A DNA stretch of 20,000 bases from Chiloscyllium plagiosum. Taxonomy: Eukaryota. The translations under genes and the position numbers were made by a program. The notes beneath the pieces were generated by a model that worked only from the letters and a program-made list of their open reading frames with translations, searched no databases and was not told where the DNA came from. Of the stretch, positions 2,219 through 20,000 are shown one piece after another; positions within the stretch are counted from its first letter, which is position 1, and each line of letters begins with the position of its first letter. The stretch is taken from assembly GCF_004010195.1 (NCBI RefSeq), contig NC_057749.1, positions 11,633,844 to 11,653,843 of the forward strand, in the 5' to 3' direction.

Positions 2219-2820
2219 AATCTTCTGCAATTACATTTAAATTCCCGAGAGGCGGAACCCTAACCACAAATTGCTGAGCCTTAGTGTTGCATGGTCCACC
2301 AAATATAAAAACTACATAAACTAAAACCACTACATTTAACAAATATACAAAATTATTAAAAATAAAAAACAACAAAAACTAGAAAACAAACCAACATATA
2401 AAGCGCCAATAGCGCAGAGTAGGGGAACTCACCCCCTGCCCGGAGGGGGCAACTACCTGTCCCGAACTCCCCATAAGTAGGCATCTAACCATCTCAACCA
2501 CCTTCACTTCTCCCAGCTAGAGCCACATGGCAAGCACAAGCTAAAAAGAATAAACACCCTAGAGTATCAATATGAATTTTTTAAAATTCTTTTATTTTAA
2601 AAAAGGGGAATAAATACCCCACCCATCCTTTGGTATGTCCTGACTTAGAAATTTAAAATGTACATCTTACCCACCACCAGACATAGTTTGAACCAAATTA
2701 TTATCAAGAGAGGAAAAAAAGGGGAAAAACAAAGCTCCAACCGGATTTCCTCCATTTCTTTTACAGAATGAAAAATGCATTCCCAAGCAACAACATTTAT
2801 GCATACTACAATTGTTTAAA

Positions 2821-3993: not shown

Positions 3994-4009
3994 GAGGACA
4001 CTTTTTTAA

Positions 4010-4420
4010 ACTTAGGGATCGCCCTTTTAGGAGATATGAGAATTTTCTCTTTAAGAGTTGGGCTACCTTTGAACTCCCTGCCTCAGAAGGTGATGGAGGA
4101 TGAATCTTTAAATAATTTTAAGGTAGAGGTAGGTAGACGTCCATTAGGCAGAGGAATCAAAGGTTACCAGGGTAGTTGTAAATGTAAAATTCAAAACACA
4201 AACTGAGCAGCCATGATCTTATTAAATAAGGCAATAAAACTGCAAATACTGGAATCCAAAGTAGATAAGTAGGACGCTGGAAGAACACAGGAAGCCAGGC
4301 AGCATCAGGAGGTGGAGAAGTCAATGTTTCGAGTATAACCTTTCTTCAGGAATGGAGGTGGGGGTTGGAAGATCAGATTTCAGGAACCTATTAGTCTACT
4401 TCTGATTGCTACTTGTGTTT
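4010..4420 (+). mobile_element. Old CR1 LINE 3'-end fragment, interrupted at ~4232-4372 by a PLE-derived insertion
   Basis: Decayed ORF2 C-terminus (NSLPQKVMEDESLNNFKVEVGR) followed by the CR1 tail CAGCCATGATCTTATT; the tail resumes after ~4372. Confidence 0.7.
4232..4372 (-). mobile_element. Short Penelope-like terminal fragment with degenerate hammerhead motif
   Basis: Minus strand reads ATTC-CTGAAGA-AAGGTTATACTC-GAAA-CATT-GACT, then CTGATGCTGCCTGGCTTCCTGTGTTCTTCCAGC, homologous to 10817-10890 and 18519-18595. Confidence 0.75.
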
Positions 4421-4434
4421 ATTTGTTAGTAAGC

Positions 4435-4560
4435 GAGGAGAGAGATTAAGAAATTTCATAACGAAAGATTTTAGGAGTGTGGAATATTTTGCCACAGAGA
4501 ATATTTGAAACAGGAGAAATTACATCTTTTAAGAGAAAATTAAGTGAGTATTTGTCACAG
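4435..4560 (+). mobile_element. Highly decayed CR1-like 3' fragment
   Basis: GGAGTGTGGAATATTTTGCCACAG reads GVWNILPQ, like the CR1 C-terminal WNxLP motif. Confidence 0.4.
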
Positions 4561-4889
4561 GCAATAATGATATTATTAAACTGGAGTTAGTTTTTCATTG
4601 TTCTAGCACAGTTGGTGGAGAAGGAGCTTCAGTGTGAGCTTTAATTCAGTTAGCCATGTTCCATAAAACTCATGCCTACTGATTACTAGCTTCCCTTTTT
4701 TTTTTAACCAAAACACACAAAACAGAAGAGAAAACCAGAAGGCAAATGTTTCCCAACTCCGAGAACTAACTATTCCCCACAACTCAGAGTCAGTCACCTG
4801 AAATGAGGAGATTCTCACCTCCTGGAACTAGCTTCCCATATTTATGCAAGCAATTCACACCCAATTAACTTTAATTTATATATCCATCA

Positions 4890-4982
4890 CCTGGGCCCAC
4901 CTGTGACCCAAGAGGTTCAGTTCCCATCTGCTCAAAAAGTGTGTATTAACATCTTTGAACAAGTTGATTTTCAAAATATCTG
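4890..4982 (+). mobile_element. Short tRNA-derived SINE-like repeat (degenerate copy)
   Basis: GGTTCAGTTCCCATCTGCTC..GTGTGTATTAACATCTTTGAACAAGTTGAT..AAAATATC aligns with 13572-13638; B-box-like GGTTCAGTTCC. Confidence 0.6.
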
Positions 4983-5403
4983 TATCCATCAACAGTTCCC
5001 TCATTCCATTAGGCTGCAAGCCTTCCCTCAGACTATATTAAATATTAAATAATAACATCCTTCTGTGAACAAAAGACTTCCATTTCTTTGGAGTCCACTC
5101 TGATCTCAGCTTCTCCTAAAGTGCTTTACCATACACCTAAGTAGCTTTGAAGTGGGAATTAATATATGGATAATATGGTGTAAATGACTATGTGTATTTT
5201 TTTAAAAAAATTATCTCAGAGAGTTTTCATTTCCAGAATTGTTTTTGGAGGATTCTATAGATGGTTATAAATAAAATGATCTAATCCTCTGAAATTTATT
5301 TATACTCTTGATGATCATGTAGTTAGTTAACCAAATGGAACAGTGAACTCCGACATTATAGCTCAACATCTTCAGATACTGAAAATGAAAGTTTTCTGTG
5401 ATT

Positions 5404-5540
5404 TTTGATGAAAGGTTATCAAGTTTTAAAAAATCAGCTATATTTTCCTCTCCACAGCTGCTGCCTGACCTGCTTGGATGTCCAAATAGTTTCTAACTTT
5501 ATTTCATATTACCAGAACCCACAGGAGATTGATTTTCTAA
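5404..5540 (+). mobile_element. Old Penelope-like terminal fragment with eroded hammerhead motif
   Basis: TTGATGAAAGGTTATCAAG... followed by GCTGCTGCCTGACCTGCT, the 3' module shared with the other PLE-terminal copies. Confidence 0.55.
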
Positions 5541-5616
5541 ATGGACTTCAGAATATTTTCTTGTTCAAATTGACAATATCGGTCTATTGTTAGAGCCATC
5601 ATCTAATCTCTGCGCC

Positions 5617-6515
5617 TCTTTTTAAATTATTCAATTTGTGGGATATGGGCATTGCTGGCTGGCCAGCATTTTTGCCCATCCCTAGTGCACTTGAGAAGGT
5701 GGTGGTGATGAGCTGCTGCCTTGAACCGCTGCAGTCCATTTGCTGTAGAGTGACCCACAATGCCATTAGGGAGGGAATTCCAGGATTTTGACGCAACAGC
5801 AGTGAAGAAACAACAATATATTTGCAAGTCAGTATGGTGAGTGGCTTGGAGGGGAACTTGAAAATGGTGATGTACACATATATCTACTGCCGTTGACCTT
5901 CCAGATGGAAGTAGTTGTGGGTTTGCAAGGTGCTGTCTAAAGGACTTGGGTGCATTTCTGCAGTGCATCTTGCAGCTAGTACACATTACTGCTACTGAGC
6001 ATTGGTGGTGGAGAAAATAGATGCTTTTGGATGCAGTGCCAATCAAGTGGCTGCTTGATCCTGGATGGTGTCAAGCTTCTTGAGTGTTGTTGGGGCTGCA
6101 CACATCCAGACAAATGGGGAGTATTCCGTCATACTCCTGACTTGTCCCTAGTAGATGGTGGACAGGCTTTGGGGAGTCAAGATGTGAGTTACATGCTGGA
6201 GTACTCTTAGCCTCTGACCTGGCCTTGTAGCCACTGCGTTTATGTGGTTAGCCCAGTTGAGTTTCCAGCTGAGGTCTGGAACACCCAGGATGTTGTTAGT
6301 GGCAGATTCAGTGATTGTAACACTATTGAATGTCAAGGGGCGGTGGTTAGATTGTCTGTCTCTTTTTGGGAATGCTGATAGGCTGGCATTTGCGAATATT
6401 ACTTGCCACTTCCCCTCTTCTGACCTTATGATGGAGGGAAGGCCATTGCTGAAGCAGCTAAAGATGGTTGGGTCTAGGACATTACTCTGAGGAACGCCTG
6501 CAGCGATATCCATGA
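5617..6515 (-). mobile_element. CR1-group (L2/Crack-like) LINE 3' fragment with internal deletion
   Basis: ORF 6148..6528: AGVPQSNVLDPTIF (RT GVPQGSVLGP motif), KWQVIF, NILGV..KLNWANHI. ORF 5627..6046: SWNSLPNGIV..LQRFKAAAH. A-rich 3' end at ~5617-5630. Confidence 0.8.
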
Positions 6516-6519
6516 AAAG

Positions 6520-6578
6520 TTCAGCCATGTTCTTATTGAATGGCAGAGCAGAGTCGAGGGGCCATAAGGTGACACTCA
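6520..6578 (+). mobile_element. Isolated CR1 3'-tail fragment
   Basis: TCAGCCATGTTCTTATTGAATGGCAGAGCAGAGTCGAGGGGCC, homologous to the CR1 tails at ~4208 and ~17363. Confidence 0.6.
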
Positions 6579-7047
6579 GTCAAATGGCATTGGTTTGCCA
6601 CCCGCAAACAACTGTAGACCAAAAGGACTTCCTAGCAGCATTGGAATCAACCCTGAAGCACAACAGACTTACGGAAGAAACCCAACAGACCATCAGACAG
6701 ACAGTAGCAACAACATTAAACAGGAAGAAAGCAGGGAACACTCTCAACACACAGGAAAGGAAAGCCCTAGAAGGACTCAGAAAGACAGAAATATTGTAAT
6801 CCTCCCTGCAGACAAAGTGTGCATGATAGTCAGTCAGTCATTCTCAACAGAACAGTACATTGAAAAGGCTACTCAAAGATATCGACATTACCAACAGGTG
6901 GCGATGGACCTGACTCCACAGCTAGAAAAGCACATCACAGCATCACTGAAGAAACTCCACAAATCAGTTGAAATTAACAACACATATTTCCAAAGAATGA
7001 AATTTGATGGATCCATTTCTATGGATTACCTAATGTACACAAACCAT

Positions 7048-7063
7048 CCCCCCCCCCCCCCCC
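7048..7063 (+). repeat. Poly-C homopolymer expansion inside the PLE
   Basis: About 16 consecutive C in the HKP..PLRPI region. Confidence 0.9.
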
Positions 7064-7576
7064 CTCTCCCCGACCCATAATCTCACTTCCCGGCACACCA
7101 ACATGCAGATTAGCAAAAGAATTTCACCGTAAACTGAAATACCTAATAGAAGACTCATGCCACTCCATCCACTCCACCCAAAAATTCCTGAAGATCAAAT
7201 ACACAAAGATAGGAGAGGACAAAGTCATGTTCTCCTTTGACACAGTGGCCCTATTCACATTAATTAACATCAGCCTGGCCAAAGAAACACTGACCACACT
7301 ACTAGATGAACCAAGGATATAAACACCAGACAGCACCAACTCTATCAGCAAGGATAGCATCCTCAAGCTAGTTGTTTGTGCCTCACTATTCACTTCGCCT
7401 TCATTGACAAGACTTACAGGCAAATCAATGGAACACCAATATCAGGATTCTTGGCAGAAGCAGTGATGCAGAGATGAGGACGAACACTTTGCCCCACGAT
7501 CCAACCCAAGCTTTGGGTCCACTATGTGGATGACACCTTTGTCATCATGAAACGAAACAAATTAAAGAAAATAACC

Positions 7577-7898
7577 ACGGTGGCACAGTGGTTAGCACTG
7601 CAGCCTCGCAGCGCCAGAGACCTGGGTTCAATTCCCGACTCAGGTGACTGACTGTGTGGAGTTTGCACATTCTCCCCGTGTCTGCGTGGGTTTCCTCCGG
7701 GTGCTCCGGTTTCCTCCCACAGTCCAAAGATGTGCAGGTCAGGTGAATTGGCCATACTAAAATGCCCGTAGTGTTAGGTAAGGGGTAAATGTAGGGGTAT
7801 GGGTGGGTTGCGCTTCGGCGGGTCGGTGTGGACTTGTTGGGCCGAAGGGCCTGTTTCCACACTGTAATGTAATGTAATGTAATCTAATCTAATCTAAT
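7577..7898 (+). mobile_element. tRNA-derived V-SINE (HE1-like, elasmobranch), near full length
   Basis: A box TGGCACAGTGG (7581-7591), B box GGTTCAATTCC (7625-7635), V-domain TGTGTGGAGTTTGCACATTCTCCCCGTGTCTGCGTGGGTTTCCTCCGGGTGCTCCGGTTTCCTCCCACAGTCCAAAGA, CR1-like tail GGGCCGAAGGGCCTG, terminal (TGTAA)n(TCTAA)n. Confidence 0.92.
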
Positions 7899-8786
7899 AT
7901 AATTAGCAACATCCTTACTGGCATAAATGTTACAAAAGAGGAAGAGTTCAACAACAGACTCCCCTTCCTAGATGTCACAGTGGAACAAACAGTCAATAGA
8001 GAACTGTAGACCAGCGTCTATAGGAGAGCAACACACACAGACCAGATACTCAACAACAGAAGCAATCATCCCAACAGCCACAAACAGAGCTGCATCAGGA
8101 CATTATTTAATTGGGCCACAACACACTGCAGCACCCAGGAACTAAGAGCAGCAGAAGAAAAACACTTATACAGCGTATTCAAGAACAGGTACCTGATAAA
8201 CACAGTCCGCTGATTCTGAAACAACAAACCCAACAAGACGACACAACAACATGCCCAGAGACTCTAGACACACTACCATACATCAAAGACATCTCTGAGA
8301 TGACTACTAGACTACTCTGACCCCTTGGCATCATGGTAGCCCACAAACCTACAAACACACTGAAACAGATACTGATGAATGTAAAGGACCCAGTACCAAC
8401 AACTAGCAAAACAAATTCATATACAAAATACCCTGCAAGGACTGCAAGAAACGATAAGTCAGACAGGCAGGCAAGAAACTAGCAACCAGGATACACGAAC
8501 ACCAACTAGCCACCAAAGGACATGACCAGCTATCACTAGTATCCTTACACACAGATGAAAGAGGACACCACTTCAACTGGGGCAAGACATTCTAGGACAG
8601 GCTGAACAGAGACATGTACGGAATTCCTAGAGATCGGCATTCAAACCGAATCTCCATCGATAAACATATCGATTTGGACCCATTTACCAACATCTGAGAA
8701 AAAGGATCGGAAATAATATTACCCACCTTAACATTCGAAGACACATAAATAGAAAGCAGGATCGAACACCAGTGCTTCACCGGAGG

Positions 8787-8828
8787 CTCACTGATGATGT
8801 TACCTAGCATGGTGACAAAACGTCTGAG
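8787..8828 (+). ncRNA. Minimal type-I hammerhead ribozyme motif in the PLE terminus (G12 mutated to A)
   Basis: CTCA-CTGATGA-T-GTTACC-TAGCAT-GGTGAC-AAAA-CGTC-TGAG. Helix I is CTCA/TGAG, helix II is GTTACC/GGTGAC, the palindrome is ACGT and the cleavage triplet is GUC. Confidence 0.8.
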
Positions 8829-8904
8829 AACAAACCTACCAGCTCAGCGAGCAAACTTACAACCTGAACTATATTTCTGCAGCAGCTATGCAAATGGTCA
8901 TCAT

Positions 8905-9700
8905 TATAGAGTGTCAATCTCTTGCCTTTTCCCCATATTCTTGCACACTATTTCTATCCAAATAATCATCTAATATCATCTTGAATTCCTCAATTGAACT
9001 TGTCTCCACCACATTTCCAGGCAATGCATTCACACCCTAACTACTCTCTATGTGAAAACCTTTTTTCCTCATATCATCTTGCTTATTTTGCACATCACTT
9101 TAAATCTAAGCCCGTTCATTATTGTTCCTTTAATCAGTGAGAAGAACTTCTCCTGAACTACTGCATCCAGCCTGCTCATGATTTTGAAAACCTCTATCAA
9201 ATCTCTTCTCAGTCTTTTTCTCTCCGAGGTGAATAGTCCCAACTTCTTCAATCTCTCTTCATAACTGTTCATCACAGGAACTAAATTGCTAGGCACTTTC
9301 TTCAGTGCATTCACATCTTTCCTATAATGTGGTGCCCAGAACTATTCGCAATACTCTGGCAAAGGTCTGAAAAGTATGTTTAATATCACCTCCTTGCTCT
9401 GATACTGTATGCTTGTTTTGATAAAGCAGAGGAATGCTTTATTTACTGCTCTCTCCAGTTGTCCTATCACTTCCAATAACCTGTGCACATAGTACACCAG
9501 ATCTCTCTGTTCCTGCAACCACTTTAGAATTGTGTTTTATTTTATATTGTCTTTAAGTGTTCCTCCTATTAAAGTATATCATCTCACATCTCTCTGCATT
9601 GAACCTCATCTGCCACCTGCCATCCACTCCATCAATTTGTCAATATCCTTTTGGAGTACTACACTACCCTCCCCATAATTCACAATTCTTCTATTCAATT
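8905..9700 (-). mobile_element. CR1 LINE 3' fragment, degenerate
   Basis: ORF 9069..9314: SYEERLKKLGLFTSERKRLRRDLIEVFKIM. GCAGATGAGGTTCAAT (WQMxFN motif) near 9600-9620 on the minus strand. Confidence 0.85.
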
Positions 9701-9904
9701 TTTTTTACATCCAAGTTGTTGCGGTTCTCACTGAAGGTACAGGGAAAGGTTGACTCAGTAATTGTTCAGTTTTTAAGTCACTGGTTAATCATCACTGAAG
9801 AGTTAACTTTCCACAATCCTTGGTCTAACGCAGTCCTTTCCTCTTTTTGGTCCATAATCCAAATACAGAAAAATGAAAAGATATGGTCTTTGCAATTATA
9901 TACT

Positions 9905-10460
9905 TTGTCAAATTGACACAGTACTCCAGATGTAGCCTCACCAATACTTTGCTATAAAAAAACTGATCAAACTGTGGATGCTGTAGTTCAGAAACACAAA
10001 CAGAAATTGCTGGAAAAGCTCAGCAGGTCTGGCAGCATCTAGAGAGAAATCAGAGTTAACGTTTTGGGTCGAGTGACCCTTCCTCAGAACTCACCAATAC
10101 CCTGTACAGTTGCAGTATAACTTCACTTCCATCATATTTCGTTCTCTTTGCAATAAATGATAACATATGATTTTTCTTCCTAATCACTTGCTGTTAATGC
10201 ATTCTAATGTGCCAGCTCACTCAGATTGCTCTGTACCATTGGGTCCTGCAACTTCTCTACATCTAAATAGGGTACTGCTTCTCTATTCTTCTAGCCAAAC
10301 TAGAAAAGTTCGCATTTACCCATGCTGTACTCTATCTGCCAAATGTCTGCTTATTCCTTTGCAGACACATTTTTTTACCAAACTTCATGATATCAGCAAA
10401 TGTACCTACCATACCTTTGTTCCCGTCATCCGAATGATTGATACAGACTGTAAATAGGTA
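9905..10460 (-). mobile_element. Old CR1 LINE RT fragment, interrupted at 9948-10089
   Basis: With the insertion removed, the minus strand reads LYRVLVRLHLEYCV (CR1 C-terminal motif). Also FADI-like (TTTGCTGATATC) and WQIEY-like remnants. Confidence 0.75.
9948..10089 (-). mobile_element. ~140-bp PLE-derived mini-element with hammerhead motif and 11-bp target-site duplication
   Basis: Flanked by CTCACCAATAC (9937-9947 and 10090-10100). Minus strand reads AGTT-CTGAGGA-A-GGGTC-ACTC-GACCC-AAAA-CGTT-AACT, then GATGCTGCCAGACCTGCTGAGCTTTTCCAGCA. Confidence 0.85.
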
Positions 10461-10504
10461 AGTGGGGGTCAGTTAGCTCAGTTGACTGATCCTGGTTTCA
10501 TAAC

Positions 10505-10945
10505 ACAAGGCCACACGCAAACTGGAGGAAGAACACCTTATCTTCTGCCTCAGGAGCATACGGCCTTAACGTAGAATTCACCAGCTTCCAAATCTCCCCA
10601 CACTCCCACCTCATCCCAGACCCAGCCCTTCCTCTCCACCCTACCCCCTTAACCTGACCCTACCTGTCCATTTTCCTTCCCACCTATCTGCTCCACTCTT
10701 CCCACTGATCAATCACAATCACCTCCTACCTGCATCCACCTATTGCCATCCCACCCACCTTTTCCACAGCCCCACCCCTCAATTTATTTTGCAGCTCCCT
10801 TTCCGTTCCCGCAGTACTGATGAAAGATTCTGCCCTGAAACGTTGACTTCCCTTCCCTGATGCTGTTTGATCTGCTGTGCTTTTTCCAGCTCCGTTCTTT
10901 ATCCATTCTGACTCGTCAGAATCTGCAGTTCTCACTATCTCCAAG
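10505..10945 (+). mobile_element. 3' fragment of a second Penelope-like family (GIY-YIG C-terminus, pyrimidine-rich UTR, hammerhead motif, 3' module)
   Basis: ATRKLEEEHLIFCL..GLNVEF (cf. PLE RKLEExHLIFRLGT..PxGLNxEF), a C-rich tract, CTGATGA (10817-10823)..GAAACGTTGACT, then GATGCTG..TGCTGTGCTTTTTCCAGC. Confidence 0.8.
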
Positions 10946-11474
10946 GATTTTTAAAAGTTGAGTGCATGTTGATCTTCTGACAATATGTTACAGTCAGCAT
11001 TAAGGACTGAGTGTTGAGTGAGAATATCCGAGAGAGATCTTTCATTGGCTGTCACACTCTGCACAACCCTGATTGACTCTTGAACGTTGGAACAGGAGCA
11101 GTCCTCAGATAGAATATGATGCAGGGAGAAAGATTTATTCCTATTGCACTTTTGGTTATTTTCAATTTAAAATATTTTGCCACTGGGCTGTAACTTTAAA
11201 TGGAATATATGTTGTAAATATTAAAACTATTATATTTGTTATAATAGAGAAACCAAAGAGTGGAATATGATATGAAAATACAAACATAGGATCATGCAAA
11301 TTCAAAACAGGAATAGGCCAATATGGAAACAAGTTGGATCTTATCGTATCTGCTTTAATTCTCAAATCATACTAGTACGTCCACACATTTAATGAATAAA
11401 TTAAACTTTTGGAATTAAAAAATGTTGCTATATTGCTATTTTTGAATTAGGAAGATGTGTCTCTCAAAACATTA

Positions 11475-13204
11475 ATTGTTGTCAAATACAAGAGGATGGC
11501 CAGAGTGAGGGGTAGGGCCAATCGGAGTAGTGGAGGGAACTTGTGTGCGGAGTTAGAGGAGGTCCTTAATGAATACTTTGCTTCAGTATTCACTACTGAG
11601 AGGGACCTTGATGTTTGTGAGGACAGCGTGAAACAGGCTGATATGCTCAAACAGGTTGATGTTAAGAAGGCAGATGTGCTAAAAAATTTGAAAATTATAA
11701 GGATAGATAAGCCCACTGATCCAGACAGAATATACCCAAGATTACTACAGGAAGCGAGGGAAGAGATGGTGCCATTGGTGATGATCTTTGCATACTCACT
11801 GTCTACTGGAGTCTTGCCAGATGATTTGAGGGTGGCAAATGTTATTCCCTTGTTCAAGAAAGGGAATAGGGATAATCCTGGAATTTACAGACCAATCAGT
11901 CTTACGACTGTGGTGGGCAAATTATTAGAGAAGATTTTGAGAGACAAGATTTCTGATTACCTAGAAAACAATAGATTGATTAGAGCTGGTTAGATGGCTT
12001 TGTGAAGGGCAGGTCATGCCTCACAAGCCTTATTGAATTATTTGAGAATGTGACAAAACACGTTGACGATAGAACTGTGAATGTGGTGTACATGGATTTT
12101 AGCAAGGCGTTTGATAAGGCTCCCCATGGTAGGCTCATTCAGAAAGTAAGGAGGCATTGGATATAGGGAAATTTGGCTGTTTGCGTTTTGAATTGGGTGG
12201 CCCATAGAAAACAGAGGGTGGTAGTTGATGGAAAGCATTCAGCCTGGAGCTCAATGGCCAGTAGTGTTTTGCAGGGATCTCTTCTGATACCTCTGCTTTT
12301 TGTGAATTTTATAAATGACTTGGATTAGGAAATGGAAGGGTGGTTAGATTTGCTGATGACACGAAGGTTGGTGGAGTGGTGGATAATGTTGAGGGCTGTT
12401 GCAAGTTGCAACAAGACATTGACAGGATGCGGAACTGGGCTGAGAAGTGGCAGATGGAGTTCAACCTGGAAAAGTGTGAAGTGATTCATTTTGGAAGGTG
12501 AATTTGAATGCAGAATACAAGGTTAAAGGCAGGATTCTTGGCAGTGTGGAGAAACAGAGGGATCTTGGGATTCACATCCATAGATCCCTCAAAAGTTGCC
12601 ATCCAAGTTGATGGACTTCTTAAAAAGGGAATGGTATGTTGGCTTTCATTAGCAGAGGGATTGAGTTTAAGAGCCACGAGGTTATGCTGCAGCTCTGTAG
12701 AGCCCTGGTTAGACTACACTTGGAATGTTGTGTTCAGTTCTGGTCACCTCATTATTGGAAGGATGTGGAAACTTTAGAGAGGGTGCAGAGGAGATTTACC
12801 AGGATGCTGCTTGGACTGGAGGGCATGTCTTATGAAAAAAGGCCCTAGCTCACTCAACCTTTCTCATTGGAGTGAAGGATGAGAGGTGACTTGATAGAGG
12901 TGATGATGAGAGGCATAGAGTGAATAGTCAGAGACTTTTTCCCAGGGCAGAAATGGCTATCACAAGGGGGCATAATTTTAAGGTGATTGGAGGAAAATTT
13001 CGAGGAGATGTAATAGGTTGGTCCTTTACAGGTGCATGGAATGCACTGCCAGTGGTGGTGCTAAAGTCAGACACGTTAGGAACACCTTGGATGATAGTAA
13101 AATGAAGGTTATGTAGGTTAGTTTAATCTTAGAGCAGGATAAAAGGTTGGCACAACATCAAGTGCCGAAGGGCCTGTACTGTGCTGTACTGTTCTATGTT
13201 CTAT
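11475..13204 (+). mobile_element. CR1 LINE, 5'-truncated, RT region to 3' tail, degenerate
   Basis: LNEYFASVFT, PDRIYPRLL, ANVIPLFKKGNRDNPGIYRPISLT, DFSKAFDK, FADD (12349-12360), LVRLHLECCVQFWSP, WNALP; tail GCCGAAGGGCCTG..GTTCTATGTTCTAT. Confidence 0.95.
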
Positions 13205-13312
13205 ACGGAGCTGCTTTTGCTGGGAGTTGTTGTTCTAAAAGACAGGGATGAAGCATATTATTAGCCTACAGTCTAAGATAAAGACTCAAAACTCTTGTTT
13301 TCTTTTCTGCAG

Positions 13313-13369
13313 GTGCTTTTATCAGGGCTAATTGGTGTTGTTTCCTGGAAAAGACCCATCTCCCTGGTG
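13313..13369 (+). CDS. ENTREP2: Internal 57-bp coding exon of ENTREP2/FAM189A1 (CD20-like transmembrane region)
   Basis: Acceptor CTCTTGTTTTCTTTTCTGCAG ending at 13312 and donor GTGAGT at 13370-13375; phase 0/0. Translates to VLLSGLIGVVSWKRPISLV, versus recalled human FAM189A1 VLLSGLIGVVSWKRPLSLV. Lies in non-repetitive sequence. Confidence 0.88.
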
Positions 13370-13529
13370 GTGAGTAGCAACAGCAGCACCAAATTAACCG
13401 GAGCAACAAGACAGGGCTGTTGAATTGCATCAATGCCATTATGGGTGGTACAGTCATATCACTCAGGTTTTGCCATCTCATTACCATTAGGTAATGATTT
13501 TATGAATAATAACAATGTGGAGGGCTGTT

Positions 13530-13640
13530 ATGGTGCAGTGATAGTTTGCTCATCTCTGAACCAGGAGATCCTGGTTCACGACCTACCTGCTGCAGAGGTG
13601 TGTAATTAAATCTCTGAACAGTTCGATCAGAAAATATCCA
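13530..13640 (+). mobile_element. Short tRNA-derived SINE-like repeat
   Basis: A-box-like TGGTGCAGTGA, B-box-like GGTTCACGACC; 3' half matches 4915-4982. Confidence 0.65.
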
Positions 13641-15561
13641 GAAGTGTGAGCAACGCAAGTTAAGGCTTAGCTATTTTGCCTGAGGCTGACAACTAAAAGT
13701 TAAGAAAATCAACACAGTTACTCTTTGCACAGAGCAGTGGCTACTTGTGGGAATTAATCAGAAATGCCTAGTCCTTTTTCCATGAAACATATTTCTATTC
13801 CCAGATTATGCGTGGAGACTATAATTGTCTATTTACATTACAGAACTCAGGCTGGAGACAGGGCCTTAAACTAAACAGGGGAAGAGGGCTCAGTTATAGG
13901 GGAAATTAGAAAACTTGAATTAAAGAAGGAATTTAGAGTTGAATTAAGAGTGCAGAATTCAGGAGAGATTATTAAAATTCCGGCACAGACACAAATAGGA
14001 GAGAGTATATGGAAAGGGATAGCAATCAAACTTCAATCACGTTGGACAAACGAATGACAGAGAAGAGGGGTGGCTAATACAGGACTGAAGGTGTTATACC
14101 TGAATGCACACAGTATAAGGAATAAGGTAAATGAGCTTTTGGTGCTGATTGAAATTGGCAGGTATGACATGGTGGGCATCACGGAGACGTGGCTGCAAGG
14201 GGATCAGGATTAGGAGCTGGATATTCAAGGATATACATCCTGTCAAAAAAATAGCCAGGTGAGCAGAGGTAGTGGGGTTGCCTTATTAGTATGAAATGAA
14301 ATTAATAGTAAGAAACAAAGTAGGATCAGGTGTGTAGAATCTGTGTGGGTAGAATTAAGAAACTGTAAAAGGTAAAAAAAATGACAGTTGGAATTATGTA
14401 CAGGCCTCTAAACAGTAGTCAGGAGCTGGGGCACAAGATACACCAGGAGATGGAAAAGATGTGTAGGAAAGGCAAAGTTACAGTGATCGTGGGGGATTTC
14501 AATATGCAGGTGGACTGGGAAAATCAGGTTGGTAGTGGACTGCAAGAAAAGGAATTTGTGGAATGTCTATGAGATGGCTTTTTGGAGCAATTTGTGCTGG
14601 AGCCCACTAGGGAACAGACAATACTGGATTTAGTGTTGTGCAGTGAGATAGACTAAGGGAGCTTAAGGTGAAGGAACTCTTAGGAGTTAATATGATTGAA
14701 TTTACCCTGCAATTTGAGAGGGAGTAGATAGAATAATAGGTAATTGTATTCCAGCTGAATAAAAGCAACTACAGAGGCATGAAATAAGAGCTGGGTAGAA
14801 TTGGACTGGGAGAGGACCCTAGCAGGAAACATAGTGGAACAGTAATGGCAGGAGTTTCTGGGAATAATTCAGGAGACACATCAGAGATTCATCTAGAGGG
14901 AAAAGCAGCATGGTACAGGGAGGATGAGGCAACCATGGCTGACTTGGGAAGTCAGGGATAGCACAAAAGCAAAAGGGAAAGTATATCATGCGGCGAAGGG
15001 CAGTGGGAAACCATAGAATTGGGAAGCTTATAAAGACCAACAGAGGACAACAAAAAAAAGGGAGTGGATTAAATAGGAAAGTAAGCTAGCCAGTAATATA
15101 AAGGAAGACTGTAAGAGTTTCTTCAGATATACAAATGGCAAAAGAGAGGCAAAAGTGGACATTGAGCCGCTGGAAAATCTTGCTGATGAAATAGTAGTGG
15201 GGAACAAGGAAATGGCCGAGGAACTGAATAATTACTTCACATCAGTCTTCGCAGTGTAAGACACGAATAATATTCCAACAATTCAAGAGAGTAAGGGGGC
15301 AGAGCTGAGTATGGTGGCCGTCACTAAGGAGAAGTGACTAGAAAAACTGAATGGCCAGAAGGTGGATAAATCACCTGGACCAGATGGACTACACCCCAGA
15401 CTTCTAAGGGAGATATCTGAAGAGATAGTGGAAGTGTCAGTGGTGATCTTTTAGGAATTGCTACATTCAGTAAGGGTCCTAGAGGATTGGAAAATTGCTA
15501 ACATGACACTCCTATTTAAAAAGGGAGTAAGGCAAAACACAAAAAAAATTATAGACCTATT

Positions 15562-15610
15562 GAATTTAGAAGGATGAGGGGTGATCTATTTGAAACTTAC
15601 AGAATACTGA
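15562..15610 (+). mobile_element. 49-bp ectopic CR1 C-terminal fragment inserted into the RT motif NYRPISLTS
   Basis: GAATTTAGAAGGATGAGGGGTGATCTATTTGAAACTTACAGAATACTGA (EFRRMRGDLFETYRIL) splits ..AGACCTATT|AGCCTAACC.. Confidence 0.8.
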
Positions 15611-16128
15611 AGCCTAACCTCAGTCATGGGTAAGATCCTGGAATCCATTGTGAAGGATGAGATTTCTGAGTACTTGGAAGTGCATGGTAAAATAAAGCCA
15701 AGTCAGCATGGTTTCATCAAGGTGAGGTCATGCCTGAAAAATCTCCTGGAATTCTTTGAGGAACTAATGAGTAGGTTAGATTAAGGAGAGTCAATGGATG
15801 TTATCGACCTGGACTTCAAGGAGGTCTTTGGCAAGGTGCCACACTGGAGGCTACTGAGTGTCTAAAGGCCTATGGTGTCAGAGGTAAGGTGCTAGCATGG
15901 ATTGAAGCTTGGCTGTCTGGCAGAAACAGAGAGTGGGGATAAAAGAGTCCTTCTCAGGAAGGCAGCCGGTGACAAGTGGTGTTCCGCAAGGCTCCGTGTT
16001 GGGACACAACTTCTCACTTCATACACTAACAATCTAAATTAAGGAACTGAGGGCATTCTGGCTACGTTTGCAGATGATACAAAGATAAATAGAGGGATAG
16101 GTAGCAGGAGGAGGCAGGGAGGCTGCAG

Positions 16129-16652
16129 TTCTGGTCACCACATTACCAAAAGGGTATGGACGCTTTGGAGAGGGTGCAGACAAGGTTTACGAGGATGTCG
16201 CCTGGTATGGAAGTGCTAGCTATGAAGAGATGTTGAGTAGGTTAGGATTGTTTTCATTAGGAAAAAGGAGGTCGAGGGGGAAACCTGATTGAGATCTACA
16301 AAATCACGAAGGTATGGATAGGGTGGATAGAGATAAGCTTTTTCCCCAGAGTGAGGGATTCAATAATGAGAGGTCGTGTGTTCAAGGTGAGAGGTAAAAC
16401 GTTTAAGGGGGATACATGCGGAAAGTACTTTACACAGAGGGGGATAGGTGCCTGGAACGTGTTGCCAGCAGAGGTAGTAGAGGCAGGCATGGTATATTAA
16501 TTTAAGGTGCGTCTGGACAGATGCACGAGTAAGTGGGGAGCAGTGGGATACAGATGCTTAGGAATTGGGCAATAGGTTTAGACAGTAGATTTGGATCGGC
16601 TCAGGTTTGGAGGGCCAAAGGGCTTGTTGCTGGGCTGTAAATGTTCTTTGTT
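16129..16652 (+). mobile_element. Nested CR1 3' fragment of a different subfamily inside the 13850-17435 CR1
   Basis: Host GGCTGCAG|AAGGATTTGGAC (RLQKDLD) is split. The insert runs from FWSPHY to its own tail GGGCCAAAGGGCTTG..GTTCTTTGTT, with CAG on both sides. Confidence 0.88.
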
Positions 16653-17072
16653 CAGAAGGATTTGGACAAGTTAGGAGAGTGGGCAAAAAAGTGGCAGATG
16701 GATTACAACATAGGAAAGTGAGGTCATGCACTTTGGTAGAAGAATAGAGGCATGAACTCTTTTCTAAATGGAGAGGAAATTCAGAAGTCTGAAGTGCAAA
16801 GAGACTTGGGAGTAGTTAGGAAGGCAAATGCTGTAACGGCATTTATTTTGGGAGGACTTGAATTTAAAAAAGCAGGAATGTACTTATGAGGCTCTGGTTA
16901 GACCACATTTGGATTATTGTGCCTAGTTTGGTCCCCATATCTCAGGACGGGTGTACTGATCCTGGAGCGTATTCAGAGGAGGTTCATGAGAACGGTCCCA
17001 TGGATGAAAAGCTTAACGTATGAAGAACGTTGGAAAATTCTGAGTTTATATTCAATGGAATTCAGAAGGATT

Positions 17073-17089
17073 GGGGGGGGGGGGGGGGG
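17073..17089 (+). repeat. Poly-G homopolymer expansion in CR1
   Basis: About 17 consecutive G replacing the RMRGD codons. Confidence 0.9.
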
Positions 17090-18084
17090 AGGATATCATT
17101 GAAACGTACAGAATACTGAATGGCCTGAACAGAGCAGATGTTGGGAAGATGATTCCTTCGGTAGGAGAGACTAAGACCAGAGGGCACAGCCTTCGAGTAA
17201 AGGAGGAAAAACGTCTTCAGCCAGAGTGGTGAATCTATAGAATTCATTGCCACAGAAGGCTGTGGAGGCCAGGCCACTGAGTAAATTTAAGACAGAGATA
17301 GATAGGTTCTTGAGTATCAAAGGCTATGGGGAGAAAGTAGATAAATGGTGTTGAGAAACTTATCAGCCATGATTGAATGGCAAAGCGGACTTGTAGGGTT
17401 CAATGGCCTAATTTCTGCTCCTGTGTCTCATGCTCTTCGCGTGTATGTGTACACCTGAGGCTTACACATGCTTCTTCTCATACACACACAAGTACAGACA
17501 CTATTTCCAGTATGCTTTCCTAACTGTATAGTTCAAAATGATTTATGTTGTAAAAGTCACTGCTCAAGGCCCATCAATAAGATCCTGGAGAATAAGATCC
17601 TGGCGAGCCATGGCAGTCCTTGTAGTGACAGTGTCCTCAAAGTTATTTGAGATGGATGTCCAGGCATGTGACCCAGTGATCAGGAAAAAAAGTGATACAT
17701 TTTCAAGTCTGAAATTAGAGAGATTTGGCGATGTTGTTCTCATGTGCCTACTGCCCTTATATTCATACCCTCTTTTAGTATAAAATATTACTAAGACATA
17801 AAATGAAATAATGACCTGGGGGCCTGTGTTTTCTGTCATGTTTGTGTTAAGAAACAACATTGCCACGAATTGTTGGGCCGCGCACTGGAAATCAAACCCT
17901 ACTCTTCTCAGTCATCACAAATTTAAAATATAAATCAAAATATGCATTATGTCCAATGTACCTGTCATAACCCCAGGTTAACATAAATCACATACCAGGT
18001 TTCTGTTGTGAAATAGAACTACTATTTATTACAAATAAATAGATAACTAAATAAACCACACGTAAACAATTATGAACTGTCAAC

Positions 18085-18392
18085 AGGCAGCAGAGTGGTT
18101 CCTCAGTACTAGGGACCCAGGTTTGATTCCAGCTTTGGGCGCTATGTGTGGAGTTAGCACATTCTTTCTGTGTCTGCATGGGTTTCCTCCCACAGTCCAA
18201 CGATGTACAAGTTAGGTGAATTGGCCATGCTAAATTGCCCACAGTGTTCAGGGATATGTAGGCTAAGTGTATTAGTCAGCGGAAATGTAGAGTAATAGGG
18301 TAGGGGAATGGATCTGGGTGGGATACTCTTCAGAAGGCCAGTGTAGACTTGTTGGGCTAAATGGCCTGTTTCCACACTGTCAGAATTCTATA
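18085..18392 (+). mobile_element. V-SINE (HE1-like), older copy with small deletions
   Basis: B-box-like GGTTTGATTCC, V-domain TGTGTGGAGTTAGCACATTC..GGGTTTCCTCCCACAGTCCAA, tail GGGCTAAATGGCCTGTTTCCACACTGT..ATTCTAT; homologous to 7577-7898. Confidence 0.88.
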
Positions 18393-18396
18393 TAGC

Positions 18397-18620
18397 TTTT
18401 TTTTCTCCACTCATTCACAGCATGCAGGCCTTGTTGGTTAGGCAGTTAAAACTCAGCCATATCGCTTGTGTCTGGAGCCACATGTAGCCAGACCAGATAC
18501 AGGCACAAGTTCCCTTTCCTGATGAAGGGCTTATGCCCGAAACGTCGATTCTCCTGCTCCTTTGATGCTGCCTGACCTGCTGTGCTTTTCCAGCAACACA
18601 TTTTTAAGCTCCTAAAAGGT
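18397..18620 (-). mobile_element. Degenerate SINE fragment (possibly Deu-domain/SacSINE1-like), interrupted at ~18519-18610
   Basis: Minus strand CTGGTCTGGCTACATGTGGCTCCAGACAC..GGCTGAGTTTTAACTGCC resembles a recalled shark SINE body; poly-A end at ~18398-18405. Confidence 0.5.
18515..18612 (+). mobile_element. ~95-bp PLE-derived mini-element with intact hammerhead core
   Basis: CTGATGA-A-GGGC-TTAT-GCCC-GAAA-CGTC-GA (18519-18548), then GATGCTGCCTGACCTGCTGTGCTTTTCCAGCA. Confidence 0.85.
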
Positions 18621-19489
18621 ACCTCAATGACAGGAGTCCAAAAAAAGAAGTCAATTTCAGCTAAGGGCAGAGTTTAGAATGGGCCAAAGCCCACAATATA
18701 CAATTTCAAACACTTTGCACCTGGGTGCAGGCAATGTGTAAAGGAAAGCCCCTGACCAGCTTTCCTATAGACATGCTGTCGGCTGCCCTCCCCCTCCCCA
18801 GCTCAGTCATCAACCCTCCAGCGCCCAGCCGCTCCACATACTAGCTGGCCCACTCCCAAACATAATCAATTACAAAATCCACATCCAGTAACAGAATTCA
18901 CTAACTCCTCACAGTTGCGTTTCCAGCACACAGGCAGCAAATGCTCACCTCTCAGCATACACAGGTGTTCAGTCTTTACAGAGGCCTGCCCACCCCCACA
19001 GGGCCAGGCCTACCCGCAGAGGAACAGTTCATTTGGAAAGGTACAATTGACTCAGGTTCAGTCCAAACACCAATAAGTGAAGGCACATGAAAAAAAGAAA
19101 ACCAAACCAGAATGCAAGGGCCACAAAATCAGTATCGTCCTTTTCTCAAAGGAGAAGAGTAACACACAGGCTGTAACCAGTGAGTAAAACAATGAGAACT
19201 GAAATACACCTGTAACACATTGACTGTGTAGATCAACAAGTTTAGAAATCAGTCCTCAATGAAATAAAAGGGATACCAATCGACAAACTGGCTGTGTAAA
19301 TCAGCCATATACAAGAAACAGCATTTTACAGGGGAAAGGGTGGCAAAGCTAGACTACAAACCTCACCATACAACCAGTTCGCATGGAAACAAGTAACCTT
19401 GAATCCCACTTTACATTATCAAAAAGAAAACAGTGAACACAATCATATACAGAGTTTGATAAACCGAACAACAGTGCATATGTAACAGA

Positions 19490-19900: not shown

Positions 19901-19917
19901 AATCTTCGTATCATCGT

Positions 19918-19966
19918 TTATATGTGTGTGTATGTGTATGTGTGTGTGTGTGTGTATGTGTGTGTA
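19918..19966. repeat. (TG)n/(TA)n microsatellite
   Basis: TATATGTGTGTGTATGTGTATGTGTGTG... Confidence 0.95.
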
Positions 19967-20000
19967 TAGAACATAGAACATAGAACAATACAGAACAGAA
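19966..20000 (-). mobile_element. 3' terminus of another CR1 copy (continues beyond the window)
   Basis: (ATAGAAC)3 AATACAGAACAGAA, nearly identical to the terminus at 19492-19521. Confidence 0.85.

What the first reader, a model, noticed from the sequence alone, without database searches (positions are those of the whole stretch)
4316..18550. Six dispersed minimal hammerhead-ribozyme motifs with a loopless ACGT palindromic helix III
Seen: the architecture helixI-CTGANGA-N-helixII-GAAA-CGTH-helixI' recurs at 4319-4353 (-), ~5405-5440 (+, eroded), 8787-8828 (+), 10054-10091 (-), 10813-10848 (+) and 18515-18550 (+). The three well-preserved helix II stems differ in sequence but all pair (GTTACC/GGTGAC, GGGTC/GACCC, GGGC/GCCC), and helix I covaries (CTCA/TGAG, AGTT/AACT, partial AGT/ACT). 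Known: Penelope-like elements carry minimal type-I hammerheads thought to act as dimers. Inference: helix III here has no loop and can form only between two copies (ACGU:ACGU). The clear copies also have one extra nucleotide between A9 and helix II. Several distinct families share this fold, and the three or four + strand copies would lie in the same ENTREP2 pre-mRNA.
Basis: partly seen in the sequence, partly recalled or inferred. Interest (0 to 1): 0.8.

Follow-up and report, generated by a model that had tools for sequence, protein, structure and literature searches.

The report
Penelope retroelement hammerheads, mostly decayed
The six motifs are worn end-pieces of Penelope-like jumping genes, which are already known to carry this small loop-less hammerhead ribozyme, so the catch is real but ordinary and almost certainly inert at this spot.

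Summary
The motifs exist, but only one of six (18519-18546, +) keeps every core base plus a paired helix II. Two (8791-8824 +, 10058-10087 -) have lost G12 by CpG decay. One (10817-10844 +) keeps both boxes but has lost helix II. One (4324-4349 -) has lost the ACGT palindrome and helix II. One (about 5405-5440) is unrecognisable.

They are not chance: 0 hits in 300 shuffles of the window. Genome-wide the core pattern occurs 168,981 times against 1,989 for a reversed control.

All sit about 50-130 nt from the 3' end of Penelope-like element (PLE) copies. The 8791 motif ends a 5'-truncated PLE copy (about 6626-8885) with reverse-transcriptase and GIY-YIG remnants, and its stop codon lies in hammerhead loop II. 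Long relatives of the other families run upstream into a second PLE clade's GIY-YIG endonuclease.

The ENTREP2 context could not be verified. This scan had already reported the same thing in other windows of this genome and in another shark genome.

Verdict: already known, low interest.

The parts
4239..4357 (-). Decayed family A copy (PLE 3' end piece). Hammerhead remnant at 4324-4349 with GAAACAT and an eroded helix II, followed by the conserved tail box.
   Evidence: inverted repeat I4 with the 18563-18594 tail. (A21: 5' homology ends 5-15 nt before CTGA). (D23: 3' extent 111).
5402..5483 (+). Heavily eroded family A-like copy. The hammerhead boxes are lost and only the tail box (about 5450-5483) is recognisable.
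   Evidence: repeat D8; D29: query positions 38-71 only.
6626..8885 (+). 5'-truncated, decayed Penelope-like element copy. It holds frameshifted RT and GIY-YIG ORF pieces, is interrupted by a SINE-like insert at 7653-7865, and ends in the family C hammerhead plus a tail-like extension.
   Evidence: ORF pieces. (pieces align to P0002 residues 227-278 and 363-455). (at least 150 scored relatives in the genome). (RVT_1 above cut-off in relatives L032, L034, L039). (GIY-YIG region). (3' end and tail).
8791..8824 (+). Family C minimal hammerhead with G12 changed to A. Helix II is 6 bp. The ORF stop codon TAG lies in loop II.
   Evidence: ORF of L040 ends ...TDDVT* inside the motif. (3,138 copies at 2 mismatches or fewer; 42 G against 32 A at G12 among 74 exact matches).
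9949..10093 (-). Family D copy. Hammerhead at 10058-10087 with G12 changed to A, helix II GGGTC/GACCC, helix I GAGTT/AACTC, and the long-form tail.
   Evidence: D27: 3' extent 135. (3,433 copies at 2 mismatches or fewer; 30 G against 18 A among 48 exact matches). (inverted repeat I2).
10509..10947 (+). Longer family A-related copy. A remnant of the endonuclease C-terminus lies upstream. Hammerhead boxes at 10817-10844 with an eroded helix II. Long-form tail.
   Evidence: (A20: upstream extent 308). (frame with ...RKLEEEHLIFCLRSIRP). (D22: 3' extent 131).
18516..18604 (+). Short-form family A unit of about 89 nt, without the optional tail. Holds the only fully intact hammerhead core of the window, at 18519-18546. 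The predicted cleavage site is between 18546 and 18547.
   Evidence: (150,434 copies of the 27-nt core at 2 mismatches or fewer). (loose ends at 18516 and at 18599-18610 mark the copy's borders).

Best explanation
The six sites are 3'-terminal pieces of Penelope-like retroelements (PLEs) from at least two PLE clades. I labelled the hammerhead families A, C and D. A fourth, B, occurs just outside the window.

Each PLE carries a minimal type-I hammerhead (min-HHR) about 50-130 nt before its 3' end. In source elements, two copies on one tandem or pseudo-LTR transcript are thought to pair their ACGU palindromes into a shared 4-bp helix III. This 'double hammerhead' would cut after GUC/GUU, probably helped by the element's protein. 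Reverse transcription then starts at one of two internal sites downstream. That gives copies with or without an optional tail of roughly 35-40 nt, and frequent 5' truncation leaves hammerhead-containing stubs scattered through the genome.

Shown here: the repeat nature, the PLE coding context, the two 3'-end classes, the inverted and tandem junctions, and the covariation.

Inferred from the literature: dimer formation, cleavage, and any role in transposition.

At this locus the copies are inert relics. CpG decay at the two essential CpGs of the core (C11.1-G12 and C15.2-G16.2) and erosion of the helices have disabled five of the six.
For: Repeat nature:
- The 27-nt core of the 18519 copy occurs 75,357 + 75,077 times at 2 mismatches or fewer, against 0 for the control.
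- The generic pattern CTGANGA N9-25 GAAACGTH occurs 84,594 + 84,387 times, against 983 + 1,006 for the reversed pattern.

PLE context, families B and C:
- The conserved upstream sequence is coding, and the ORF stop lies in loop II.
- The window copy has RT and EN pieces at 6626-8595.
- Relatives score RVT_1 at 33-42 bits against a cut-off of 29.6.
- Full-length homologues are 600-870 aa. One of them (P0023) has RVT_1 plus GIY-YIG above cut-off, and the local EN piece aligns to that GIY-YIG region at E = 5e-7.

PLE context, family A:
- Long copies run upstream into ...LLAERFREHL...VAEHFNSP...LEEERLIFRLGTLQPQG.
- This is the same protein type as L009, whose GIY-YIG scores 31.2 bits against a cut-off of 22.6.

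PLE hallmarks seen in the 294-kb sample:
- Two 3'-end classes: 16 copies end at +85 to +98, 23 at +111 to +139, and none of 43 beyond +139.
- Families B and C show the optional tail.
- Head-to-head inverted junctions in 9 of 35 family A copies. One inverted joint is also seen in reads and in DNA contigs.
- Variable 5' truncation.

All of these are described for PLEs (PMC8557442 passages; PMC11167929 passages).

Structure:
- Helix I cells pair in 59.3% against 44.5 +/- 2.9% when shuffled (0 of 500 shuffles reach it) and 15-38% when slid.
- B/C helix II pairs in 90.5% of cells, with CG 6, UG 5 and UA 3 at one pair.

The min-HHR definition matches point by point (PMC4209133).
Against: - No cleavage was shown here.
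- Rfam's hammerhead models give no hit at E up to 10. This is expected for a motif without a helix III hairpin, but it means there is no independent model support.
- Family A's helix I is weak: 2-3 pairs with a U.U mismatch.
- In families B and C, the 5' half of the motif overlaps the last codons of the ORF, so part of its conservation may be coding constraint.
- Only 2 of 43 family A copies begin near the predicted cleavage site (query start 36-40).
- The laid RNA run shows no pile of read ends there (table 6: none). That library was single-cell poly(A), which is poorly suited to see such ends.
- Published work reports low in vitro activity (PMC4209133), insertion in vitro that is unaffected by hammerhead mutations (PMC11167929), and PLE clades that thrive without hammerheads (PMC8557442).
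- The covariation rests on only four or five families, so there are few independent events.
- GIY-YIG in the B/C clade is below Pfam's cut-off (14.3 bits).
Confidence: 0.85

Rival explanations
1. The conserved box only looks like a hammerhead. It would serve as a structural or protein-recognition element at the PLE 3' end, for example to position the reverse transcriptase near its internal start sites, and would not cut RNA in vivo.
For: - The short family A units start 3-6 nt before CTGA and end at the RT start sites. Four of 25 carry target-site duplications of 14-18 nt.
- Few copies start at the cleavage site: 2 of 43.
- No pile of read ends.
- Published low in vitro activity and hammerhead-independent insertion in vitro.
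- Naiad PLEs lack hammerheads.
Against: - All invariant hammerhead core bases are kept across families whose helices differ.
- The 15.2-16.2 palindrome is kept.
- An anole PLE hammerhead cuts in the presence of its protein, with C3G/G8C rescue (PMC11167929 passage).
- A structural role and a cleavage role do not exclude each other.
Confidence: 0.12
2. The + strand copies are live ribozymes that pair within one host pre-mRNA and cut it, affecting host gene expression.
For: - Three recognisable + strand copies (8791, 10817, 18519), plus the unrecognisable 5405 site, lie within 13 kb.
- One has an intact core.
- A further intact family A copy lies 22.4 kb upstream on the same strand (position 96,102 of the 220-kb stretch).
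Against: - G12 is lost at 8791, helix II is lost at 10817, and 5405 is unrecognisable.
- In a double hammerhead, helix I forms between copies, and the flanks of different families do not match.
- No reads fell on the unique flanks in the sampled RNA run.
- No exon or gene could be verified in the window.
Confidence: 0.02
3. The copies are monomer offspring of tandem 'non-LTR retrozymes' that spread through circular RNAs, rather than truncated autonomous PLEs.
For: - Short head-to-tail arrays of family A hammerhead units (periods of 36, 44, 54 and 103 nt) exist elsewhere in the genome.
- Short TSD-flanked units exist.
- A 2026 preprint derives animal retrozymes from PLE pseudo-LTRs and reports them in one chondrichthyan (abstract and passages).
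Against: - None of the six window copies is tandem.
- Only 190 close tandem pairs were found, against about 169,000 motifs.
- Two window copies (8791, 10817) continue upstream into PLE coding sequence.
Confidence: 0.1

Closest known systems
Minimal hammerheads (min-HHR) in the pseudo-LTRs of metazoan Penelope-like elements (Cervera & de la Pena 2014, PMC4209133)
   Same: - CUGANGA and GAAA boxes.
- No helix III hairpin, and palindromic 15.2-16.2 (ACGU), implying action as a dimer.
- An unpaired base between A9 and 10.1.
- G10.1-C11.1.
- A short helix I.
- Several covarying consensus families per genome.
- Most copies are solitary and tied to truncated PLEs.
   Different: Nothing in kind. Helix II of family A is 4 bp, whereas the paper stresses 6-8 bp stems. 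The number here (about 169,000 exact-core motifs) is far above the 4,000-9,000 the paper quotes for coelacanth and Xenopus.
Penelope-like elements with a C-terminal GIY-YIG endonuclease (Craig et al. 2021, PMC8557442; Frangieh et al. 2024, PMC11167929)
   Same: - RT plus GIY-YIG ORF.
- Strong 5' truncation.
- Tandem and inverted insertions.
- An optional 30-40 bp tail explained by two adjacent internal RT start sites.
- A hammerhead near the 3' end.
   Different: In the anole element the ORF starts inside the hammerhead. Here the B/C-clade ORF ends inside it (stop codon in loop II), and the family A hammerhead lies about 210 nt after the ORF end.
Animal non-LTR retrozymes and the Schistosoma Sm-alpha type of hammerhead-bearing SINE-like repeats (PMC7229834, search listing only; preprint 10.64898/2026.07.22.740005, abstract and passages)
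   Same: Short non-coding hammerhead-bearing units. Tandem forms exist elsewhere in this genome.
   Different: Retrozymes carry canonical type-I hammerheads with a small helix III loop in tandem arrays. The window copies are dispersed, single and loop-less.
Viroid hammerhead with an extra nucleotide after A9 (De la Pena & Flores 2001, known to me only as cited within PMC4209133)
   Same: One unpaired base between A9 and G10.1.
   Different: A type III viroid ribozyme with a normal helix III.

Membership tests
PLE min-HHR (Cervera & de la Pena 2014) | Catalytic boxes CUGANGA and GAAA, with H (not G) at the cleavage position | tested here: met
   Met by the families: 168,981 exact genomic matches against 1,989 for the control. 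G12 is the majority state among exact family C and D matches (42 of 74 and 30 of 48). In the window it is met by 2 of 6 copies (18519, 10817).
PLE min-HHR (Cervera & de la Pena 2014) | No helix III hairpin; palindromic 15.2-16.2, so that helix III forms only between two copies | tested here: met
   GAAACGTH with nothing between C15.2 and G16.2 in all 30 distinct rows. One window copy has decayed to ACAT.
PLE min-HHR (Cervera & de la Pena 2014) | Unpaired nucleotide between A9 and 10.1, and a G10.1-C11.1 pair | tested here: met
   A (families A, D) or T (families B, C) follows CTGANGA in 30 of 30 rows. The 10.1-11.1 pair is GC in 10 and GU in 4 of the 14 B/C rows. It is G-C in family A, with a G.U variant (L014).
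PLE min-HHR (Cervera & de la Pena 2014) | Helices I and II paired, with compensatory changes between families | tested here: met
   given in full under Best explanation. The evidence is moderate because only four or five families are involved. The two outer helix I pairs are mostly unpaired.
PLE min-HHR (Cervera & de la Pena 2014) | Location in the pseudo-LTR or 3' region of an element that encodes RT plus GIY-YIG | tested here: met
PLE min-HHR (Cervera & de la Pena 2014) | Self-cleavage as a dimer | not testable with these tools
   Co-folding was not informative. The RNA lay showed no pile of ends at the site, but the library was unsuited.
Penelope-like element (EN+) | Reverse transcriptase followed by a C-terminal GIY-YIG endonuclease in one ORF | tested here: met
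   RVT_1 is above cut-off in three genomic relatives. GIY-YIG is above cut-off in the family A clade (31.2 bits). In the B/C clade it is weak (14.3 bits), but the piece aligns to the GIY-YIG region of P0023. Intact copies in my loci were partly masked, so no complete ORF was read.
Penelope-like element (EN+) | Optional 30-40 bp tail, 5' truncation, and tandem or inverted insertion structures | tested here: met
Rfam hammerhead families (Hammerhead_1, _3, _II, HH9, HH10; names recalled) | A match to a curated covariance model | tested here: not met
   No hammerhead hit in the window at E up to 10. Those models expect a helix III hairpin (my reading; I did not inspect the models).
Non-LTR retrozymes | Head-to-tail tandem units, each with a complete hammerhead | tested here: not met
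   None of the six window copies is tandem. Tandem forms occur elsewhere in the genome.

The most novel reading that the evidence does not exclude
The hugely abundant short family A units may be a SINE-like non-autonomous parasite of a PLE, rather than randomly truncated copies. They are about 90 or 130 nt long, start 3-6 nt before CTGA, end at the two RT start sites, and some are flanked by 14-18 nt target-site duplications. On this reading, 'hammerhead fold plus RT entry site' would be the minimal module that the PLE machinery copies. The sharp 5' end would reflect either a transcription start in the pseudo-LTR combined with internal RT initiation, or a stop of the RT at the folded hammerhead. 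That would give the hammerhead a role as a recognition or boundary element rather than, or besides, a cutter.
Probability: 0.25. Interest if true: 0.45.

Novelty: already known. Interest (0 to 1): 0.15.

Why it matters
It matters little for this locus. The window shows ordinary repeat debris of a published kind.

Two modest points are worth keeping:
- This genome holds an unusually large population of PLE min-HHRs: about 169,000 with exact core boxes, and by rough extrapolation from one 220-kb stretch several hundred thousand copies including decayed ones. That makes it a rich natural data set for hammerhead covariation and decay. Both essential CpGs of the core are mutational hot spots in a methylated genome.
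- The discrete class of short, TSD-flanked, hammerhead-headed units bears on the open question of what PLE hammerheads are for.

Tried and rejected
- Rfam scan of the window at E up to 10: no hammerhead family.
- Pfam GIY-YIG search of the whole genome: only 150 of 14,403 first-look candidates were scored. It gave one hit, which still supplied the family A-clade endonuclease.
- Pfam on the window's own short, frameshifted PLE ORF pieces: nothing useful. I used longer relatives instead.
- PDB sequence search with the B/C endonuclease piece: no meaningful hit.
- Pfam on 44 of the window's 57 open frames of 70 aa or more, leaving out 13 frames between 6218 and 8970 and at 18157-18673 (some of the + strand ones had been scanned): only a LINE-type RVT_1 at 136-792 (-). 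The ENTREP2 claim stays unverified.
- RNA co-folding of monomer against dimer: the predictions favour alternative pairings and do not settle anything.
- Sequencing runs: no RNA holder was listed for the stretch.
- One raw RNA run of the same species label gave 1,338 reads. Of these, 1,336 lay only partly on the stretch, so they come from paralogous copies. They lay in both orientations. The second RNA run gave none.
- A wider random genome sample for a family census could not be fetched, so family proportions rest on one 220-kb stretch, a few targeted loci and the first 100 places listed.
- Lunse, Weinberg & Breaker (RNA Biol, PMC5785218) is not held. I know it only from the reference list and one sentence of PMC6765202.
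- A literature search for hammerhead + Penelope + shark found no paper on shark PLE hammerheads (4 papers, none relevant).
- I could not test the idea that the short units' 5' end is a pseudo-LTR transcription start, because no full-length family A-clade element could be read.

Full report
**What is in the window**

I read the six sites and scanned the window with box patterns and with a descriptor that also asks for a helix II next to the core.

- Only 18519-18546 (+) is a complete motif: CTGATGA, one extra A, GGGC/TTAT/GCCC, GAAACGTC.
- 8791-8824 (+) and 10058-10087 (-) have well-paired helices II (6 and 5 bp) and I (4 and 5 bp), but read AAAACGT. G12 follows C11.1, so this is a CpG-to-CpA change. 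The window's CpG observed/expected ratio is 0.30. G12 is the general base of the ribozyme (PMC6155905 passage).
- 10817-10844 (+) keeps both boxes but its helix II is eroded.
- 4324-4349 (-) reads GAAACAT, so the second core CpG has decayed, and helix II is lost.
- About 5405-5440 (+) has neither box.

The motifs are far beyond chance. There are 2 exact box matches against 0.01 expected. With the pairing descriptor there are 1 strict and 3 decay-tolerant hits, against 0 in 300 dinucleotide shuffles. Rfam's curated models find no hammerhead at E up to 10.

**They are copies of very abundant repeats**

The window is G000:C40:11633844-11653843 in a 3.56-Gb assembly.

- The 27-nt core of the 18519 copy occurs 150,434 times at 2 mismatches or fewer, with 0 for the control.
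- CTGANGA N9-25 GAAACGTH occurs 168,981 times, against 1,989 for the reversed pattern.
- Of the first 100 places listed, by my count by eye about 90 are the AGGGC-loop-GCCC type, which I call family A. Nine are the longer GTYACC type, families B and C.
- The window's other two types are also families: 3,138 copies for the 8791 type (C) and 3,433 for the 10058 type (D), each at 2 mismatches or fewer.
- Among exact matches, G at position 12 outnumbers A (42 against 32 of 74; 30 against 18 of 48). The window copies are therefore the decayed state.

**The repeats are ends of Penelope-like elements**

I fetched 200 kb around the window and a few targeted loci, about 294 kb in all.

Families B and C:
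- Copies share conserved upstream sequence that is coding.
- They end about 50 nt after the motif, with or without an extra stretch of about 40 nt.
- In a relative, the long ORF ends ...TDDVT* with the TAG inside hammerhead loop II.
- In the window, + strand ORF pieces between 6626 and 8595 align to a 656-aa shark protein, P0002, from its residue 227 on. The 8791 motif therefore closes a 5'-truncated, frameshifted PLE copy that also carries a SINE-like insert at 7653-7865.
- Genomic relatives of its RT piece are numerous: 150 scored out of 7,379 first-look candidates. They score RVT_1 above cut-off.
- Full-length homologues are 600-870 aa. One of them, P0023, has RVT_1 plus GIY-YIG above cut-off.
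- The local endonuclease piece aligns to that GIY-YIG region at E = 5e-7. On its own it scores only 14.3 bits in Pfam.

Family A:
- Long copies run 300-438 nt upstream into the C-terminus of a second endonuclease type.
- This is the type found by the genome-wide GIY-YIG search, at 31-32 bits against a cut-off of 22.6.
- The 10817 copy of the window reaches into this coding remnant.

**Hallmarks of PLE insertion are all present**

- Family A copies end in two classes. Sixteen end 85-98 nt after the start of the motif, 23 end 111-139 nt after it, and none of 43 extends further.
- This matches the optional 30-40 bp 'tail' and the two adjacent internal RT start sites described for PLEs (PMC11167929 passages; PMC8557442 passages).
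- The 18519 copy is a short form. Reads and contigs from paralogues diverge from it at 18516 and at 18599-18610, and many continue with the tail sequence.
- Nine of 35 copies sit in head-to-head inverted junctions in or beside the motif. One such joint is also seen in reads and DNA contigs.
- Close direct pairs occur in L004 and L007.
- 5' truncation is variable.

**Structure and covariation**

- Across 30 distinct motif rows, the three inner helix I pairs change on both sides between families: AU/CG/UA, UA/CG, and GC/UA/CG/AU.
- 59.3% of helix I cells pair, against 44.5 +/- 2.9% in shuffles (0 of 500) and 15-38% when the partner is slid.
- Within the 14 B/C rows, helix II pairs in 90.5% of cells, with CG 6, UG 5 and UA 3 at one pair. 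Family B has an A.G or G.G mismatch at another pair.
- Helix II of A (GGGC/GCCC), D (GGGTC/GACCC) and B/C (GTYRCC/GGNNAY) are unrelated in sequence but all pair.
- These are few independent events, so the support is moderate.
- Family A's own helix I is weak.

**Comparison with what is known**

Cervera & de la Pena 2014 (PMC4209133; main text parts 1-2 read) define exactly this motif. Their description covers:
- no helix III or loop 3, and action as a dimer through an extended helix III;
- a conserved G10.1-C11.1 pair and palindromic 15.2-16.2;
- a short helix I;
- many covarying consensus families per genome;
- mostly solitary copies tied to truncated PLEs;
- low activity in vitro.

A review repeats this and cites Lunse et al. 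for dimer cleavage (PMC6765202 passages). I could not read the Lunse paper. A 2026 preprint links animal retrozymes to PLE pseudo-LTRs and includes one chondrichthyan. Earlier notes of this scan reached the same reading for other windows of this genome and for another shark genome. I had already seen the repeat structure and tested the PLE link myself.

**Function at this locus**

- In a double hammerhead, both helix III and helix I form between the two copies.
- The window's + strand copies belong to different families with non-matching flanks. All but one are disabled.
- The nearest intact same-strand family A copy is 22.4 kb away.
- A sampled poly(A) RNA run gave reads only from paralogues, in both orientations. 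None fell on the unique flanks, and there was no pile of ends at 18546/18547. That library is poorly suited to see such ends, so this is weak evidence.
- No host exon was recognisable in the frames scanned, so the ENTREP2 statement is unverified.
- I conclude the copies are inert relics.

**One point left open**

- Six to ten of 35 family A copies begin within a few bases of the motif's 5' edge.
- Four of 25 copies whose homology reaches the motif's 5' edge, all of them of this short class, carry 14-18 nt target-site duplications. Among 200 mismatched control pairs, only 2 reached 11 nt or more.
- Only 2 of 43 copies begin near the cleavage site.
- So short hammerhead-headed units of about 90 or 130 nt were inserted as such, and cleaved RNA does not look like the usual template.
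- I could not test whether the sharp 5' border is a pseudo-LTR transcription start or an RT stop.

**Verdict**

Interest is low.

Noticed in passing
G000:C28:11848979-11849658; C6:10710400-10710611; C10:64121052-64121459; C7:6482155-6482356; C26:15592370-15592494 (places listed): Short head-to-tail arrays of family A hammerhead units, with periods of about 36, 54, 103, 103 and 44 nt. The 36-nt array reads GTG at the cleavage triplet, so it should not cut. The 103-nt arrays keep GTC. These are retrozyme-like tandem forms. Only 190 such close pairs exist genome-wide.
   Followed up: no
L001, L002, L006 (around position 1500 of each) and L028:9822-9861: Short family A units start 3-6 nt before CTGA and are flanked by 14-18 nt target-site duplications. 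This means 90-130 nt hammerhead-headed units were inserted as such.
   Followed up: partly
L040 about 2188-2227 (both strands), L032 about 942-969, L010 about 8524-8530, and the two strands at position 212776 of the 220-kb stretch (L029): Head-to-head inverted pairs of family A copies, joined in or next to the hammerhead (9 of 35 copies). An inverted joint at window 18530/18589 also appears in RNA reads and DNA contigs of paralogues.
   Followed up: partly
window 7653-7865 and 18145-18380: Two copies (77-89% alike) of a SINE-like repeat. One is inserted into the decayed PLE copy. The other lies 135 nt upstream of the intact hammerhead unit.
   Followed up: no
window 136-792 (-), 5630-6579 (-), 11994-12820 (+), 15578-16720 (+): LINE-type reverse-transcriptase remnants. 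RVT_1 scores 86 bits at 136-792. The others are recognised from repeats D1, D5 and D6 and from typical RT peptide motifs, which I identified by eye.
   Followed up: partly
window 19916-19986 (+): A TG/TA-rich simple repeat gives a sub-threshold Rfam match to mir-297 (31.8 bits against a gathering score of 90). Most likely a low-complexity artefact.
   Followed up: no
Core of every family (C11.1-G12 and C15.2-G16.2): Both CpGs of the minimal hammerhead are essential positions. In this CpG-depleted genome, 38-43% of otherwise exact family C and D copies already read A at G12. New copies are therefore disabled quickly.
   Followed up: partly
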